From Novakomyces olei (lineage: Eukaryota): a DNA stretch of 64,000 bases. The notes under the pieces were generated by a model. The model made no database searches, was not told the DNA's origin, and saw only the letters and a list, made by a program, of their open reading frames with translations. The DNA lies in contig JADEYG010000012.1 in assembly GCA_016906335.1 (NCBI GenBank), positions 1,178,001 through 1,242,000 on the forward strand. Reading direction: 5' to 3'. The translations under genes and the position numbers were made by a program. Of this stretch, positions 17,714 to 23,034 are shown one piece after another. How positions within the stretch are numbered: position 1 is the first letter of the stretch; each line of letters opens with the position of its first letter.

Positions 17714-18606
17714 ATGGACTACCAGGTAAGAAGCTCTTTCTACAACTCTATCTTACTAATGTTGTAGAACAGGGCCGGCAGCAAGTTTGGCGGCGGCGGC
17801 GTCGCCGGCGTTTCTGAGACTAACTTAAACCGCAGAGAACGGTTACGGAAGTTAGCGCTTGAAACGATAGATCTAGCAAAAGATCCTTATTTCATGAAGA
17901 ATCATCTAGGATCTTATGAATGCAAGCTGTGCTTGACTCTCCATGCTAATGATGGCTCCTATCTCGCACATACGCAAGGCAAAAAGCATCAAACAAACTT
18001 AGCTCGTCGTGCTACATTAGATCGCGAACGGGCAGCTCGACTAGGTGTAGCCAACCGCAATTTTGATGCTCTATCAGCCGCTGCTGCTGCTGATAGAGCT
18101 GCAGCCGGACCTGCAGCTTCTGCTGTTGCCGGAGGAAAAAAATCGTTCATAAAAATTGGTCGGCCCGGATACCGTATTATGAAGGTGCGCAGTAGGGAGG
18201 GCGAGGATACCCACAGTCCAGCTCAGGACGGAGTTTTCATACAAGTTTCTTTGCCAGAAATCGCACCGGGCGTGAAGCCTAGGCATAGGTTCATGTCTGC
18301 GTACGAACAGCGACAAGAACCTCCTGATCGAGAGTACCAGTATTTGATTATTGCGGCAGAGCCCTATGAGTCTATTGCAATAAAACTAGGTGAGTTTTAT
18401 CATATTTTAATTTATTTTAATCATTTTAAATCTATTAATAATAATGATTTATTTTATGGAATAAGCTAATCAGAATAGAGGCTCGAGAAATTGATCGTTC
18501 ACAGGGGAAATTTTACGAATACTGGGATTCTCCTAATTACTACATGCAATTTTTCTACAAGTCGCCTCGAGTGGATAATAAGATTTCTGCTGTTCCCGGT
18601 CTGTAG
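17714..18606 (+). CDS. PRP11: Splicing factor SF3a subunit 2 (Sap62/Prp11)
   Basis: MDYQ/NRAGSKFGGGG...RRERLRKLALETIDLAKDPYFMKNHLGSYECKLC; introns 17726-17767 and 18390-18478. Confidence 0.95.
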
Positions 18607-18912: not shown

Positions 18913-19529
18913 CTAGTCGGTACTTGCGCAACCGTGGCAGCCTGATTGGTTAATAAATTATGGAATCTGTGCACTAAACTCACCACAATGAATACAGTCT
19001 ACTTCCGTATTGGCGTCCAATTTATGTTTTGGTACGCGGCATACGCACGTGTTGTTAAAGTTGGTCTCTGATGTCGCAATGCATTTTAGGCAGCAAAGTT
19101 TCTCATATCCAGGCTAAAGGTTAATATCGATTTTAAAGATCGACAAAGCTAGACTGCCCACCTTTTTCCACTTTGCTATAAGATTACCGTCCGCAAAACC
19201 TTGCTTAAGGAGCCAGTCATAAAGCTCCCGAGAAATAGCATCCCGGTTGTAGTAGAGATCATAGACGTAGCGAGACCGCTGATGATGTATCTGCATTATT
19301 TTATGTGTAAGCTGTACTTTGATCTTGTCGTGCCCAGGATCCGACTCGGCGTCTCGCATCTTGAGCGCAAATGCCTCCAAGGTGGGCGCGATTTTGTCAT
19401 AGCCAGCAGGTGCTCTGCTACGTTAGTCATCATAGGCTATAACAAATATCCTCACGGCCGCTTGCAGTAGGAAGAATCTAACTAAAAATAGCCTTACTTT
19501 TTCGTTCGTAAAGTCTTGATACGAGGCAT
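18913..19529 (-). CDS. BUD31: Spliceosomal protein Bud31/G10/Cwf14
   Basis: MPRIKTLRTK...HHQRSRYVYDLYY...KWKK/PGYEKLCCLKC...CIHC/GCHGCASTD; introns 19415(or 19418)-19497, 19114-19161, 18942-18983. Confidence 0.95.
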
Positions 19530-19573: not shown

Positions 19574-19640
19574 CAGTCACGTATAATGTGTCGAGAAGAA
19601 ATAGAAATGGTTATTAAAACGTTACCAGGGTTAGGGTTAG
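19574..19640. promoter_or_regulatory. Homol D-like CAGTCACG (19574-19581) plus telo-box/Homol E-like AGGGTTAGGGTTAG (19627-19640) in the BUD31/snoRNA-cluster divergent promoter
   Basis: Motifs read directly; the same motif pair occurs upstream of RPL21. Confidence 0.6.
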
Positions 19641-19857
19641 TCTAATTTATGTAATAGCAAGAGAATAAATCTAATTTTCTACGATTATACAAATTTAACT
19701 ATCTGTTGTAACTAACCCGTATGAAATATTAATTATAAAAAATTTGCATTGAACACAATCAATTGGTTTGCAGTGGCATTGCTCTTATTCAGCAAAGCTC
19801 CATTTTGAGATTGCTGTGATCAACGTTACGTTCGTGTAAGTTTCTATCTCGACTCTC

Positions 19858-19938
19858 GTTCCGAATGATGTAATTTACAAACGATAACTTTTGAGCTTCG
19901 GCTTTGATCGTTTCAATTAGCTCTAGAACTGACGGAAC
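19858..19938 (+). ncRNA. Box C/D snoRNA, predicted guide for the 18S A in UUCU-A-GAGCU (about A162, yeast numbering)
   Basis: Terminal stem GTTCCG/CGGAAC, C box ATGATGT 19865, D box CTGA 19929; 13-nt guide ATTAGCTCTAGAA complementary to conserved 18S TTCTAGAGCTAAT. Confidence 0.85.
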
Positions 19939-20034
19939 ATATTTGTTTTCCTTACCATTCTCTTTATACGCGCAGTTATTCTAACAATGTCAGCAGATCA
20001 CGCGTTTCATACAGTAAGTCATTCTGTGGCGGCA

Positions 20035-20140
20035 GCACTGTGGTGATGATGAAAAAGCCTTTCGTTTTAACGAGTCTCGACTGTTTAGTGATGACTAAAG
20101 CCTTTCAATACCAAAAGTTTCAGCCTTGTCTGAGCAGTGT
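20035..20140 (+). ncRNA. snR41: Box C/D snoRNA snR41 (18S Gm1126 guide)
   Basis: Stem GCACTG/CAGTGT, C box GTGATGA 20043, C' 20088, D CTGA 20130; guide AAGTTTCAGCCTTG complementary to 18S CAAGGCTGAAACTT. Confidence 0.88.
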
Positions 20141-20268
20141 CGTGCACGCCAATTTTTCGGGCTAGCTTGCTTACCACTAAAGCAAAAATTCCATAATGAT
20201 TCGATAATAAACGATCGGGTTATTCCTCCGTTTGTTTTCTACAAATTTCTCGAAGGTGAGTCTACAAG

Positions 20269-20380
20269 GGCCATATGATATGATGATTGCTCAAGACGTA
20301 CGGGCGGACTAAGCACCAGTTACGAATAATGTACAAGGAACTGGATTTGCTGCTGAGAAAAGTCTTTCTGATCATTGGCC
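20269..20380 (+). ncRNA. snR70: Box C/D snoRNA snR70 (18S Cm1639 guide)
   Basis: Stem GGCCA..TGA/TCATTGGCC, C box ATGATGA 20280, D CTGA 20368; guide ACGGGCGG before D' CTAA (18S CCGCCCGT); extra element TGTACAAGG in an internal hairpin. Confidence 0.85.
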
Positions 20381-20444
20381 TAATCGCATTTTGCTTTGAA
20401 ATTAAATTGACTAACTTTCTCAAGGTACGTATGCTCGCAGAGTT

Positions 20445-20546
20445 CTGTGCTCGGTGCTGATGAAATCTTAATACTGCGTATTCACACTGTCTGAAAATCA
20501 TTCGTGACGCAAAATCTTTTGGAGACCTTCTGAGCCGTTCGCACAG
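20445..20546 (+). ncRNA. snR51: Box C/D snoRNA snR51 (25S Um2729 guide at D')
   Basis: Stem CTGTGC/GCACAG, C box TGATGA 20458, D' CTGA 20491 with guide GTATTCACACTG (25S CAGTGTGAATAC), D CTGA 20530; the snR41-70-51 order matches the known yeast cluster. Confidence 0.85.
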
Positions 20547-20720
20547 GCCAAATTTTCTACAAAGCTAAACAAATAGGCATATTATTTGCAAAAGTCTGAA
20601 CTTTACTGGCTCAATTCTGTCCACTAGTCAAGGTTCTTGATACAAAGTAAGTCCTTAGTCAAACGGAATGTGAGCACACAAATTCTCGTTTATGTTCTTA
20701 TGAATACAAGTTTTGAGAAA

Positions 20721-20822
20721 GGCAGCAGAATGATGTAAACATGATTCGCTGCGTTCTTGCCAAGTGGGCTGTATTGCAGTCGTATGCAGATTATAATCAT
20801 CTTGGAGAACTGATTTGCTGCC
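20721..20822 (+). ncRNA. Box C/D snoRNA, dual guide for 5.8S (about A43) and the 25S C in UCU-C-CAAG
   Basis: 9-bp stem GGCAGCAGA/TTTGCTGCC, C box ATGATGT 20730, D CTGA 20810; 14-nt TTCGCTGCGTTCTT complementary to 5.8S AAGAACGCAGCGAA; ATCTTGGAGA complementary to 25S UCUCCAAGGU. Confidence 0.85.
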
Positions 20823-20876
20823 AAACTTTATTCATATATTTATTCATTTATATCGAATATCCTTTTAAGTTATCAG

Positions 20877-21623
20877 ATGGAAGTCGACCAGAGTAACGAG
20901 GCATGTGTTATGCCGGGAACTACCGTCTTAAATGTCCCGTCTAAAATCGATAACCCTCCTTTACGCCTAGGCCCCGGTCTCGTTCACCATATCGATGCCA
21001 AAACAGGAGACGTCACGGTTACAGCCAGCCGGGTGGGCATTCTACACCAGCCCAAACCGTTAACTCTAGGGTTAAGCACCCCATGCAAACGATATGTTGC
21101 CGGGCTTGGTGATTTTGTGGTTGGAAAAATTGTCTTTAGGCATTCGGAGGGATACAGAGTGGATATCGGAACAGCACAGTTGGCGAATTTGGGAATGTTA
21201 GCTTTTGGTGAACAAACTACGAGACGTTTCAAGCCCAATTTGCAAGTTGGTGACATTATATATGCTCGTGTTTCCTTGGCGCACAGAGACATCGAGACCG
21301 AGCTCGAGTGTTTTGATGCTACCACTGGAAAAGCAGGAGCTTTTGGTCATTTACAGGGCGGCTATGCTGTAGAAGGTCTAGATTTGCTTGTGGCGGCCGC
21401 CCTTTTCCAAAAGAGTAGCAGTATTCCTGCCTTACAAAGGCTCGGAGAGCAGTTTGCCTTTGAACTTTGTGTTGGCGTTAACGGTCGGGTGTGGATTAAA
21501 ACAGACGATTTTTCTCACACCGTTCTTGTTAAAAACACCATAGAAAATTGCCGTGGCATGACGTCTTCCGAATTATCGGAATACGTGGAACGCGAACTGC
21601 AGTCTATTGCAGAAAGGGGGTGA
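20877..21623 (+). CDS. RRP40: Exosome cap subunit Rrp40
   Basis: LRLGPGL, KRYV...GDFVVG, YRVDIG, KPNLQVGDIIYARV, ELEC, VGVNGRVWI motifs. Confidence 0.93.
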   Translation: MEVDQSNEACVMPGTTVLNVPSKIDNPPLRLGPGLVHHIDAKTGDVTVTASRVGILHQPKPLTLGLSTPCKRYVAGLGDFVVGKIVFRHSEGYRVDIGTAQLANLGMLAFGEQTTRRFKPNLQVGDIIYARVSLAHRDIETELECFDATTGKAGAFGHLQGGYAVEGLDLLVAAALFQKSSSIPALQRLGEQFAFELCVGVNGRVWIKTDDFSHTVLVKNTIENCRGMTSSELSEYVERELQSIAERG

Positions 21624-21719: not shown

Positions 21720-23034
21720 TTATTCCCGGTCTAATGTACCATCAAACTGTAAATTGCGTCGCAATTGTTCCTGCCAAGCATCATCGTCCCTTTCAATTGC
21801 CGACCATTCAATCACATTATCCTGTCCAAGCGCAAAATTGCTCTGCCGAGTTCGCACCAGACTGACCATATGCGCACCAGTGTTGAGTGCCTTGCCCAAG
21901 TCGTGAATGAGCGATCGCACATAAAAGCCAGAGCTCACGTTCATATGAAGCCGAATGATGGGTGGCGCGAGCTTATCACCTGCTTTATCAAGAGCATCAG
22001 CGACAGAATTGACCTCTTTCTTGAGTTCAGTACTTTTATCAGAACCCTCTAATGGCACTGCCTCTGCACCCGTATACGCAACATTTTCCTCGGCTGACTT
22101 CACGGCTGGTTTGCCGCCTTTCTCTTCACTGCCAAATTTATCATTGTTTTGCTTATTCATTTTAGTTGAATTTTCAGCCTTTTCCGTTCCTTCATTAGCT
22201 ATTTCCGTAGACTTTACACGCTTCGTAGGGGGCTCTGCACCATATAAAAGCTTCTCCGACTCAATCTCAACCTCCGAGCCAGTCTCTGTTGGCGCCTTAA
22301 AGTCGTGTTCACGAGTGAATTCCAATAATTCCACTTGACAAGAAACTTGCCGTGCGGCAATTTCCCTTGGAAGTGGTAAGCCTTCTCGGGCATACTCGTA
22401 CAAAGCTTTCCCGTCCATTTTCAGTGCAGAATAAAGGGGTGGTAATTGGAGCAGATCCGGTCGGCAAAAGGCCTTGAGAGCCTCACGTACTTTGGCCTCC
22501 GTTATATGAGCGCTTGGTGCACTGTACAAGCACCGTCCTGCGCTATCATACGTTGTAGTTGCGCTGCCAAAGAGCGCTACGGCCTCATATTCTTTGGTGC
22601 CACTCAGAAACTGGTGCAGCTGTTTTGTGCCTGAATTGATCCCGACAACTTGCAGGTTAGATTTGCCTTGAATTTTGAATTTCGCATTTAATTTAGGTTT
22701 TAAACTCTTTATCATCAAAGATTTTCTGCATTGACCTGTTCAGAACCTCTATTTGAGCCAATTTTCTTGTTTTTCCATTACCTAAGACACCACTAGCTAA
22801 TGGGTCAAGTGTTCCTCCATGGCCCATTTTGAAATCTGGTATATTTCCACGTCGTCTCCTACTTTTTGCCGGAGTAGAGCGAAGTTGGGGTCCTAGACTG
22901 CTTTTACGCAGAGCTGCTTTGAATTCTTTGAATTAATTACGTTTTCCAGATACAATTATTTGCTTACTGTCCAGTAAGCCCGCCGAACTAATACCCGAAG
23001 GCTTATTTAGCCCAACGAGGCCGCTACCGACCAT
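21720..23034 (-). CDS. PUS4: tRNA pseudouridine-55 synthase (TruB family)
   Basis: NKPSGISS, KMGHGGTLDPLASGVL/VVG, PPLYSALKMDGKALYEYAREG, SSGFYVRSLIHDLG; introns 22926-22967 and 22649-22781. Confidence 0.93.

What the first reader, a model, noticed from the sequence alone, without database searches (positions are those of the whole stretch)
19836..20876. Hidden five-snoRNA intronic cluster (X-snR41-snR70-snR51-Y) in an apparently ORF-less gap
Seen: five C/D-box cassettes, each with a terminal stem and each preceded by its own 5' splice site; the first four are followed by a branch site plus acceptor, and the exons are tiny and non-coding. Established: snR41-snR70-snR51 is a three-member, non-intronic polycistron in S. 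cerevisiae. Inference: this is an intron-encoded, expanded version with two extra guides, released by splicing.
Basis: partly seen in the sequence, partly recalled or inferred. Interest (0 to 1): 0.8.

Follow-up and report, generated by a model that had tools for sequence, protein, structure and literature searches.

The report
Intron-hosted five-snoRNA cluster beside RRP40
This gap holds five real methylation-guide snoRNA genes, each apparently sitting in its own intron, which is the already described fungal snR41-snR70-snR51 cluster in its five-member form; the one unusual point is that it seems to lie in the leader of the exosome gene RRP40.

Summary
Window 19836-20876 (+) carries five box C/D snoRNA cassettes. 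Each has a terminal stem and lies 24-83 nt downstream of a consensus 5' splice site (5 sites against 0.52 expected). Order and guides match fungal "snoRNA cluster III": slot X (18S A159/U110), snR41 (18S G1123), snR70 (18S C1635), snR51, then Afu_294 (5.8S A42, 25S C1845; Rfam above threshold). Many of 105 environmental fungal contigs found with the snR41 guide show the same order. Nearly all have branch site-YAG|GT junctions without exons, as at window 20255/6 and 20424/5.

It is not new. Luo et al. 2013 describe this cluster as intronic in most fungi, with U45 and U55 introns at both ends and exon-less intron-intron-intron splicing. Jöchl 2008 and Liu 2009 cloned its members.

Differences here:
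- a single-gene tree places the genome with Taphrinomycotina;
- snR51 has no inserted intron and a different second guide;
- slot X is aimed 5 nt from the U45 site;
- the last intron's acceptor abuts the RRP40 start codon, so the host is probably the RRP40 mRNA and not a non-coding RNA.

No RNA data or own rRNA could be had, so splicing is inferred.

The parts
19734..19742 (+). TATA-like element (TATAAAAAA), candidate core promoter of the host transcript; first exon would end at 19835
   Evidence: Sequence read directly. Its function and the transcription start are inferred, not tested.
19836..19993 (+). Intron A: 5'ss GTAAGT at 19836, branch site TCTAAC at 19980, acceptor CAG at 19991-3 (alternative 19994-6)
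   Evidence: splice use inferred
19858..19939 (+). sno1 (slot X): box C/D snoRNA. The D guide pairs with 18S around A159 and the D' guide with 18S around U110 (proxy rRNA numbering).
   Evidence: 13 bp (3 of 300 shuffles as good) and 12 bp (0 of 300). Terminal stem GTTCCG/CGGAAC. Rfam gives only a weak snoR53Y match, 17.7 bits, E 5.
19994..20013 (+). Mini-exon 2 (20 nt, or 17 nt if the second CAG is used)
   Evidence: inferred
20014..20255 (+). Intron I: 5'ss GTAAGT at 20014 and AAG acceptor at 20253-5, directly followed by the next 5'ss. The branch site is weak.
   Evidence: 64 of 67 distinct spacers at the equivalent junction in related loci show branch site..YAG|GT.
20034..20141 (+). sno2 = snR41 homologue; D guide to 18S G1123 (the Gm1122-1126 site of Afu-455 / Nc CD9 / snR41)
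   Evidence: 14.5 score, 0 of 300 shuffles. Rfam snR41 26.8 bits, below gathering 50, E 0.058. The 3' 21 nt are identical to the Afu_455 consensus.
20256..20424 (+). Intron II: 5'ss GTGAGT at 20256, branch site ACTAAC at 20410, acceptor AAG at 20422-4, directly followed by the next 5'ss
   Evidence: 40 of 53 related spacers show the same juxtaposition
20268..20380 (+). sno3 = snR70 homologue: D' guide ACGGGCGGA (20300-8) to 18S C1635, plus GTACAA (20330-5) complementary to the 18S TTGTAC 2 nt upstream of the target
   Evidence: The covariance model built from 51 environmental homologues gives its only window hit here (20274-20377, 13.1 bits, E 0.075).
20425..20576 (+). Intron III: 5'ss GTACGT at 20425; GCTAAAC followed by TAG at 20574-6 (alternative AAG 20561-3)
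   Evidence: 3' end weakly defined
20441..20549 (+). sno4 = snR51 homologue: the D' guide TATTCACACTGT is identical to that of related loci. Its D guide differs from theirs and best fits 25S U1842.
   Evidence: (27 of 300 shuffles for the D guide). The D' target region of 25S could not be obtained.
20577..20646 (+). Exon 3 (about 70 nt, no ATG)
   Evidence: inferred
20647..20876 (+). Intron C: 5'ss GTAAGT at 20647, TTAAG at 20865-9, acceptor CAG at 20874-6 abutting the RRP40 ATG
   Evidence: same TTAAC + 7-8 nt + AG pattern as in the BUD31 introns; homologous snoRNA is intronic in 34 related loci, listed there with the window as row 35.
20720..20823 (+). sno5 = Afu_294 (RF01506) homologue: D' guide to 5.8S A42, D guide to 25S C1845
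   Evidence: Rfam 44.3 bits against gathering 43; 1 of 300 and 14 of 300 shuffles. Targets agree with Afu-294 in PMC2377427.
20877..21623 (+). RRP40 (exosome cap subunit) coding exon, probable last exon of the host transcript
   Evidence: Pfam RRP40_S1 1.5e-25 and KH_6. The N-terminus MEVDQSN aligns with Schizosaccharomyces MSEVEES.

Best explanation
The stretch is the fungal 'snoRNA gene cluster III' in its five-member form. It holds five box C/D methylation-guide snoRNA genes, in the order slot X, snR41, snR70, snR51 and Afu_294/U55-type, each inside its own spliceosomal intron of one RNA polymerase II transcript.

The transcript probably starts just downstream of the TATA element at 19734. 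It most likely continues into the RRP40 coding exon, so that the snoRNAs lie in 5'-UTR introns of the RRP40 mRNA.

snoRNP proteins would assemble on each C/D motif and terminal stem. Splicing would free the introns, and debranching plus exonucleolytic trimming down to the snoRNP would give RNAs of about 80-110 nt.

Two internal exons appear to be missing (AG|GT at 20255/6 and 20424/5). Introns I-III would then have to be removed stepwise from 5' to 3', each step rebuilding a 5' splice site, as reported for this cluster in other fungi.

Shown here: the cassettes, their guides, their order, the splice-signal pattern and its recurrence in related loci. Inferred: transcription, splicing, the stepwise order and the RRP40 host.
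For: Rfam places sno5 in Afu_294 above the gathering score.

On a proxy fungal rRNA, the guides of sno1, sno2 and sno5 pair at the fifth-nucleotide rule with 12-15 bp, matched by 0-14 of 300 shuffled guides. The sno2 and sno5 sites equal those published for Afu-455 and Afu-294, which form one cloned cluster with Afu-277 in A. fumigatus.

In 105 environmental loci found with the snR41 guide + D box:
- 70 of 94 with enough flank carry the snR70 guide core;
- 56 of 79 carry snR70 then snR51;
- 27 of 56 carry snR70, snR51 and the Afu_294 guide in order;
- 64 of 67 and 40 of 53 distinct spacers show branch site..YAG|GT, against 91 of 1050 random segments (sequences).

A model built from 51 snR70-like sequences hits the window once, at sno3. 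The accessory GTACAA element is shared (53 of 65 loci against 56 of 2100 control windows).

The window has five 5' splice sites against 0.52 expected.

Luo et al. 2013 describe the same layout, the missing exons and ESTs consistent with stepwise splicing.

For the RRP40 host:
- the conserved N-terminus fixes the ATG at 20877;
- only 53 nt separate it from the sno5 stem;
- CAG|ATG is preceded by TTAAG at the spacing seen in the BUD31 introns;
- the 165-nt spliced leader has no upstream ATG, while the introns hold 20 in 954 nt.
Against: - No transcript evidence of any kind. No RNA run was listed and no genome is held, so the organism's own rRNA could not be used.
- Rfam snR41 is below threshold (26.8 against 50), and snR70 and snR51 gave no Rfam match at E up to 10.
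- The sno3 guide is only 8-9 bp and is not better than shuffles on its own (127 of 300). The R1 hit is weak (E 0.075, rough calibration).
- The snR51 target region of 25S was not obtainable.
- Branch sites of introns I and III, and the TTAAG of intron C, depart from CTAAC/TTAAC.
- The absence of upstream ATGs has a chance probability of about 0.09.
- RRP40 is not next to the cluster in the other loci. Only L081 has it, about 3 kb upstream.
- The closest RRP40 relative (P0121, 66% identity) is annotated from the second Met.
- An AT-rich stretch with TATA-like words lies between sno5 and the ATG and could serve an independent promoter or terminator.
Confidence: 0.8

Rival explanations
1. The same five intronic snoRNAs are carried by a separate non-coding host RNA of the UHG/GAS5 type, as described for cluster III in other fungi. 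That transcript would end shortly after sno5, or sno5 would lie in its 3' tail, and RRP40 would be transcribed from its own promoter overlapping the end of the cluster.
For: - Luo et al. report that the spliced hosts of these clusters lack long ORFs, and Liu et al. say the same for N. crassa.
- RRP40 is not syntenic with the cluster in the other loci.
- TATA-like and UAUAUA-like words occur at 20834-20858.
- The branch-like TTAAG of the last intron is non-canonical.
- The closest RRP40 relative is annotated from the second Met.
Against: - Only 53 nt lie between the sno5 stem and an ATG whose N-terminal peptide is conserved with Schizosaccharomyces, which leaves no room for a promoter outside the cluster.
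- An acceptor CAG abuts the ATG with the branch spacing typical of this genome.
- The exons are free of ATG.
Confidence: 0.3
2. The five snoRNAs are cut from an unspliced polycistronic precursor by an RNase III (Rnt1-type) enzyme and exonucleases, as in S. cerevisiae. On this reading the splice-like signals are relics or chance.
For: [quoted passage not shown] Two of the five branch sites in the window are weak.
Against: - Five consensus 5' splice sites against 0.52 expected, each just upstream of a snoRNA.
- Canonical CTAAC branch sites stand at 19980 and 20410.
- The spacers do not fold better than shuffles (z from -1.9 to +0.5), and no long stem capped by an AGNN loop is seen (that Rnt1 needs such a loop is recalled knowledge).
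- The neighbouring BUD31 gene has three ordinary introns, so the organism splices.
Confidence: 0.05
3. Some cassettes, especially sno1, or sno4 with its altered second guide, are decaying or orphan copies that no longer guide methylation.
For: The sno2 D', sno3 D and sno4 D elements have no target, or only a marginal one, in the rRNA available (283, 204 and 27 of 300 shuffles as good). sno1 has no significant Rfam family.
Against: All five keep C and D boxes and terminal stems. sno1 has two independent 12-13 bp complementarities to 18S. Single-guide C/D snoRNAs are common, and the homologues in related loci also lack a D guide in snR70.
Confidence: 0.1

Closest known systems
Fungal snoRNA gene cluster III in its 'Euascomycete' form, U45 - snR41 - snR70 - snR51 - U55 (Luo et al. 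2013, PLoS One, PMC3596301; sections 5 and 8 and passages read)
   Same: Five members. The same three core snoRNAs appear in the same order, with one extra snoRNA intron at each end. The two interior exons are missing, giving intron-intron-intron. The host carries only short exons.
   Different: - The genome groups with Taphrinomycotina and not with Pezizomycotina.
- No 'intron B' splits snR51, and its 18S-A100-type guide is replaced.
- The slot-X guide aims at 18S A159, not the U45 site A154 used by 24 of 25 distinct guides in related loci.
- The cluster abuts the RRP40 ATG, whereas the described hosts are non-coding.
Aspergillus fumigatus chromosome 1 cluster Afu-455 / Afu-277 / Afu-294 (Jöchl et al. 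2008, PMC2377427; table and passages read)
   Same: sno2 and sno5 have the targets published for Afu-455 (18S Gm1122) and Afu-294 (26S Cm1851, 5.8S Am43). sno5 passes the Rfam Afu_294 threshold.
   Different: That paper lists three cloned members as 'intergenic' and does not discuss introns. Sequence outside the boxes and guides is not alignable.
Neurospora crassa cluster III, CD17 - CD9 - CD6 (Liu et al. 2009, PMC2780460; table and passages read)
   Same: A U45-type snoRNA, snR41-II and snR51 sit in one UHG-like, spliced host. One snoRNA per intron is the rule.
   Different: In N. crassa, CD6 (snR51) is described as exon-encoded, and no snR70 or Afu_294 member is listed in the passages seen. 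N. crassa guides 18S Am159 from a separate snoRNA (CD15, D' guide).
S. cerevisiae snR41-snR70-snR51 polycistron
   Same: Same three guides in the same order.
   Different: The yeast transcript is unspliced. Yeast snR41 also guides 18S A541 (recalled), a guide that sno2 lacks.
Mammalian snoRNA host genes (UHG, GAS5) and protein-coding hosts such as ribosome-biogenesis genes
   Same: One snoRNA per intron, with hosts linked to ribosome production.
   Different: This is a resemblance only. In the window two exons are absent, and several snoRNAs would lie upstream of the coding exon.

Membership tests
Box C/D snoRNA (each of the five) | C box RUGAUGA near the 5' end and D box CUGA near the 3' end, brought together by a terminal stem; length about 70-120 nt | tested here: met
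   Four C boxes are perfect or differ in the last base (ATGATGT in sno1 and sno5), and sno4 has CUGAUGA. All D boxes are CTGA. Stems are 6 bp or more.
Box C/D snoRNA (each of the five) | Guide of 10 nt or more complementary to rRNA, with the target paired to the 5th nucleotide upstream of D or D' | tested here: met
   on a proxy fungal rRNA and not the organism's own. Met for sno1 (two guides), sno2 D and sno5 (two guides). sno3 has 8-9 bp plus an accessory 6-7 bp. The sno4 D' guide is untestable because the 25S 3' third is missing.
Box C/D snoRNA (each of the five) | Stable small RNA bound by the snoRNP proteins | not testable with these tools
   No RNA run listed
Rfam RF01506 Afu_294 | Score at or above the gathering threshold (43 bits) | tested here: met
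   44.3 bits, full-length match 20726-20816
Rfam RF01218 snR41 | Score at or above the gathering threshold (50 bits) | tested here: not met
   26.8 bits, E 0.058. The guide and D box are nevertheless identical to the consensus, and the target is the snR41 site.
Fungal snoRNA cluster III (snR41-snR70-snR51) | The three guides in this order on one strand within about 0.5 kb | tested here: met
   56 of 79 related loci show the same order; snR70 model
Fungal snoRNA cluster III (snR41-snR70-snR51) | snR51 guide pairs with 25S at the Um2729-equivalent site | tested here: inconclusive
   The guide core is identical to that of related loci. No rDNA reaching that part of 25S could be fetched. The rRNA sequence there is recalled only.
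Intron-encoded snoRNA, one per intron | [quoted passage not shown] | tested here: met
   The 5' sites are all consensus. Branch sites are canonical for 2 of 5 and weaker for 3 of 5.
Intron-encoded snoRNA, one per intron | Spliced junctions in RNA | not testable with these tools
U45-type snoRNA (slot X) | Guide directing methylation of the 18S position equivalent to human A159 / N. crassa A154 | tested here: not met
   The window's sno1 selects A159 in proxy numbering, 5 nt downstream. 24 of 25 distinct slot-X guides in related loci select A154.

The most novel reading that the evidence does not exclude
The whole five-snoRNA cluster is carried in the 5' untranslated region of the mRNA for RRP40, a subunit of the exosome that trims snoRNA 3' ends. 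It would be removed by recursive splicing across two zero-length exons.

Production of five rRNA-methylation guides and of an exosome subunit would then be coupled in one transcript.

Because the genome groups with Taphrinomycotina, the five-member arrangement would also be ancestral to Ascomycota, and not an insertion specific to Pezizomycotina as proposed in print.
Probability: 0.45. Interest if true: 0.45.

Novelty: new member of a known kind. Interest (0 to 1): 0.3.

Why it matters
It shows that an apparently empty 1-kb gap is a dense non-coding locus that annotation pipelines miss. Rfam called only one of the five snoRNAs at its thresholds.

For snoRNA evolution it adds a data point outside the lineages sampled in print. 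A five-member cluster III with exon-less junctions occurs here in a Taphrinomycotina-like genome. This argues that the flanking snoRNA introns and the exon losses are older than the published 'insertion in Euascomycetes' scenario.

If the RRP40 host is confirmed, it would be a protein-coding host for a cluster described so far only in non-coding hosts. It would also be a natural substrate for studying recursive splicing in a small genome.

Tried and rejected
- **RNA evidence.** The look-up of sequencing runs listed no RNA holder for 19600-21000 (none was listed).
- **Own genome and rRNA.** No genome is held.
- **Earlier findings of this scan.** Nothing by place, words or sequence.
- **18S in viral contigs.** The 114 stretches found with a 14-mer were chance hits; none carried a second 18S motif.
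- **rDNA from prokaryote assemblies.** Contaminant contigs gave 18S, 5.8S and the first ~2,250 nt of 25S (two loci proved to be plant-type and were not used). The 3' third of 25S was not found in 20 assemblies: the 7 matches of the 12-mer lay in long bacterial contigs (four inspected; the three judged by contig position only). Two family searches got no answer from the machine.
- **Synteny.** RRP40, BUD31, TruB and SF3A2 of the window were searched in the 105 loci. Only L081 has RRP40, about 3 kb upstream of the cluster.
- **Direct similarity.** blastn of the five snoRNAs against the loci finds only the guide/D-box ends, so no close relative was available for covariation.
- **RNase III hairpins.** The spacers are no more stable than shuffles.
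- **Coding potential of the gap.** Five ORFs of 36-79 aa; the longest, on the minus strand, has no Pfam match.
- **Homol-D box.** Upstream it is one of 4 in the window against 2.4 expected, which is not significant.
- **Protein atlas.** The look-up for RRP40 gave no taxonomic help.
- **Papers.** Mitrovich et al. 2010 could not be read. One paper search failed on a term's syntax and was not repeated. Supplements of the papers (cluster figures, S-tables of exon losses) were not seen and may already contain Taphrinomycotina-type layouts.
Full report
**What is in the sequence**

The 1,041-nt stretch lies between two genes. BUD31 runs on the minus strand: its ATG is at 19529 and its three short introns are read (Pfam). 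RRP40 runs on the plus strand from ATG 20877 to 21623 (Pfam RRP40_S1 1.5e-25).

No ORF in the gap looks like a gene. There are five ORFs of 36-79 aa, and the longest has no Pfam match.

On the plus strand there are five box C/D cassettes, at 19858-19939, 20034-20141, 20268-20380, 20441-20549 and 20720-20823. Each has a C box, a D box and a terminal stem of at least 6 bp.

A 5' splice-site hexamer precedes each C box by 24-83 nt, at 19836, 20014, 20256, 20425 and 20647. Five such hexamers in 1,041 nt compare with 0.52 expected from the whole window (P about 2e-4). The opposite strand of the stretch has one.

**Identity of the five RNAs**

Rfam at curated thresholds calls only the last one, Afu_294 (44.3 bits against 43). 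At permissive thresholds the second matches snR41 (26.8 bits, E 0.058), and its 3' 21 nt equal the Afu_455 consensus.

No genome is held for the window. I therefore took fungal rDNA from contaminant contigs in prokaryote assemblies: 18S and 5.8S from L259, and 25S positions 1-2255 from L227. I scanned each guide under the fifth-nucleotide rule against 300 shuffled guides.

| Guide | Best target (proxy numbering) | Duplex | Shuffles as good |
|---|---|---|---|
| sno1 D | 18S A159 | 13 bp | 3 of 300 |
| sno1 D' | 18S U110 | 12 bp | 0 of 300 |
| sno2 D | 18S G1123 | score 14.5 | 0 of 300 |
| sno5 D' | 5.8S A42 | score 14 | 1 of 300 |
| sno5 D | 25S C1845 | score 11.5 | 14 of 300 |
| sno4 D | 25S U1842 | score 11 | 27 of 300 |
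| sno3 D' | 18S C1635 | 8-9 bp | 127 of 300 |
| sno2 D' | none | - | 283 of 300 |
| sno3 D | none | - | 204 of 300 |

The sno2 and sno5 sites are those published for Afu-455 (Gm1122) and Afu-294 (Cm1851, Am43). With Afu-277 these form one cloned cluster in A. fumigatus (PMC2377427, table and passages).

The part of 25S that snR51 targets could not be obtained. The sno4 D' assignment therefore rests on identity of its guide core with that of related loci.

**Related loci**

One scan of metagenome contigs with the snR41 guide + D box returned 105 loci. Counts are:
- 70 of 94 loci with at least 300 nt downstream carry the snR70 guide core;
- 56 of 79 loci with at least 650 nt carry snR70 then snR51;
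- 27 of 56 loci with at least 1,300 nt carry snR70, snR51 and the Afu_294 guide + D box in order.

Between snR41 and snR70, 64 of 67 distinct spacers show a branch site followed by YAG|GT with no exon. Between snR70 and snR51 the figure is 40 of 53. Random segments of the same loci show it in 91 of 1,050 cases (sequences). The window has the same juxtaposition at 20255/6 (GAAG|GTGAGT) and 20424/5 (CAAG|GTACGT).

In the 34 distinct related segments with an Afu_294-type snoRNA (which lists them with the window as a 35th row), it sits in an intron with a branch site 50-70 nt after the D box.

52 of 92 loci with enough upstream flank have a snoRNA in slot X. Of its 25 distinct guides, 24 select 18S A154, the U45 site.

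None of the loci is a close relative: only guides and boxes align. A covariance model built from 51 snR70-like sequences gives a single hit in the 64-kb window, exactly at sno3 (13.1 bits, E 0.075).

A detail not looked for: 53 of 65 snR70-like sequences, and the window (20330-5), carry GTACAA 21-59 nt after the guide, against 56 of 2,100 control windows. GTACAA is complementary to the 18S TTGTAC that lies 2 nt upstream of the guide's target. Such extra pairing would compensate for the short guide. That extra pairings of this kind aid methylation is recalled from the literature, not read here.

**What is already in print**

Luo et al. 2013 (PMC3596301; sections 5 and 8 and further passages) analysed exactly this cluster ('cluster III'). 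They report that:
- it is intronic in most fungi and unspliced only in S. cerevisiae and close relatives;
- in all 'Euascomycetes' two interior exons are missing (intron-intron-intron);
- U45- and U55-associated introns sit at both ends;
- an extra intron B splits snR51;
- 42 ESTs fit stepwise 5'-to-3' removal, or alternative acceptor use from one donor.

Liu et al. 2009 (PMC2780460, table and passages) verified spliced, UHG-like hosts in N. crassa. Mitrovich et al. 2010 is cited by both for absent exons in Candida and Yarrowia, but I could not read it.

**How this copy differs**

1. Lineage. The best glycogen-synthase hit is Taphrina deformans (73%). The best named RRP40 hits are Schizosaccharomyces (43-44%). 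A quick single-gene tree puts the window with Taphrina, Pneumocystis and Saitoella, outside a Pezizomycotina + Saccharomycotina clade (SH-aLRT 96). The window sits on a long branch, however, and the careful search did not finish. Luo et al. sampled only Schizosaccharomyces for that subphylum and concluded that the two flanking introns were inserted in Euascomycetes. A five-member cluster here suggests an older origin.
2. No intron B. In 54 of 63 related loci an 18S-A100-type guide follows the snR51 D' guide. In the window that guide is replaced by one that best fits 25S U1842, 3 nt from the sno5 target.
3. Slot X aims at A159, 5 nt from the U45 site, and carries a second guide to 18S U110.
4. 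The host. See the next section.

**The host transcript**

The RRP40 N-terminus MEVDQSN aligns with Schizosaccharomyces MSEVEES, so the ATG at 20877 is the start codon. It lies 53 nt after the sno5 stem and directly after CAG (20874-6).

Eight nt upstream of that CAG is TTAAG. This matches the pattern of BUD31 introns 2 and 3, TTAAC followed by AG 7-8 nt on.

Joining the putative exons (about 19760-19835, 19994-20013, 20577-20646) to the ATG gives a 165-nt leader with no upstream ATG. The chance probability of that is about 0.09, and the putative introns hold 20 ATGs in 954 nt. The start context would be ACAAAATGG.

I therefore favour RRP40 mRNA as the host (about 0.55 within the overall model). 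Several points argue against:
- RRP40 is not syntenic with the cluster elsewhere;
- the last branch site is non-canonical;
- TATA-like words lie in the 53-nt gap;
- the nearest RRP40 relative is annotated from the second Met.

**Mechanism and rivals**

The most likely course is as follows (inferred; established for intronic box C/D snoRNAs in general, recalled):
1. RNA polymerase II transcription starts downstream of the TATA element at 19734.
2. snoRNP proteins assemble on each C/D motif.
3. Splicing frees each intron, and debranching and exonucleolytic trimming follow.
4. Introns I-III are removed stepwise because no exon separates them.

An RNase III route as in S. cerevisiae is unlikely. 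The spacers fold no better than shuffles and show no long capped stems, the splice signals are strongly enriched, and the neighbouring gene is spliced.

For intron I, an alternative acceptor at 20180-2 would leave a 73-nt exon in place of none. This cannot be settled without RNA.

**Verdict**

The finding is a real five-gene snoRNA locus, correctly read in outline by the first stage, and a new member of a described kind. Interest is modest. Its value lies in annotation, in the lineage it comes from, and in the testable idea that an exosome-subunit mRNA hosts the cluster.

Noticed in passing
window 20330-20335 and loci L004-L105 (snR70-like RNAs): A conserved GTACAA element lies 21-59 nt downstream of the snR70 guide in 53 of 65 distinct environmental sequences (56 of 2,100 control windows) and in the window. 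It is complementary to the 18S TTGTAC 2 nt upstream of the guide's target, which suggests accessory base-pairing that supplements a guide of only 8-9 bp.
   Followed up: partly
window 20508-20533 and 20792-20813: The D guides of sno4 and sno5 both pair with the same 25S segment (CAGGTCTCCAAGGTGA) and select nucleotides 3 nt apart (U1842 and C1845 in proxy numbering). The sno4 guide replaces the 18S-A100-type guide found in 54 of 63 related loci.
   Followed up: partly
window 19574-19581 (+): A Homol-D-like box, CAGTCACG, lies 284 nt upstream of the first snoRNA and 45 nt from the BUD31 ATG. Fission yeasts use this element for snoRNA and ribosomal-protein genes. Here it is one of 4 in the window against 2.4 expected, so it is not significant.
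   Followed up: partly
window 18942-19529 (-): BUD31 has three short introns (19497-19415, 19161-19114, 18983-18942). Their 5' sites are GTAAGG, GTGGGC and GTGAGT. Their branch sites are CTAAC or TTAAC, 7-8 nt before the AG. This gives the local splice-signal habit used above.
   Followed up: yes
loci L220-L281: Eukaryotic rDNA contigs, fungal and plant types, sit as contaminants in many prokaryote assemblies. None of the 16 longest reaches beyond about 2,220 nt into the large-subunit rRNA.
   Followed up: no
L052, L025, L001/L003/L086/L097: Among the loci found with the snR41 guide, L052 has a 4-nt exon (AATT) between the snR41 and snR70 introns and L025 one of about 60 nt. L001, L003, L086 and L097 carry the guide in a different, unrelated-looking cluster.
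   Followed up: no
window 17894-18469 (+), 21720-22715 (-): The neighbours are also RNA-processing genes: SF3A2/Prp11 upstream, and a TruB-family pseudouridine synthase convergent with RRP40.
   Followed up: no
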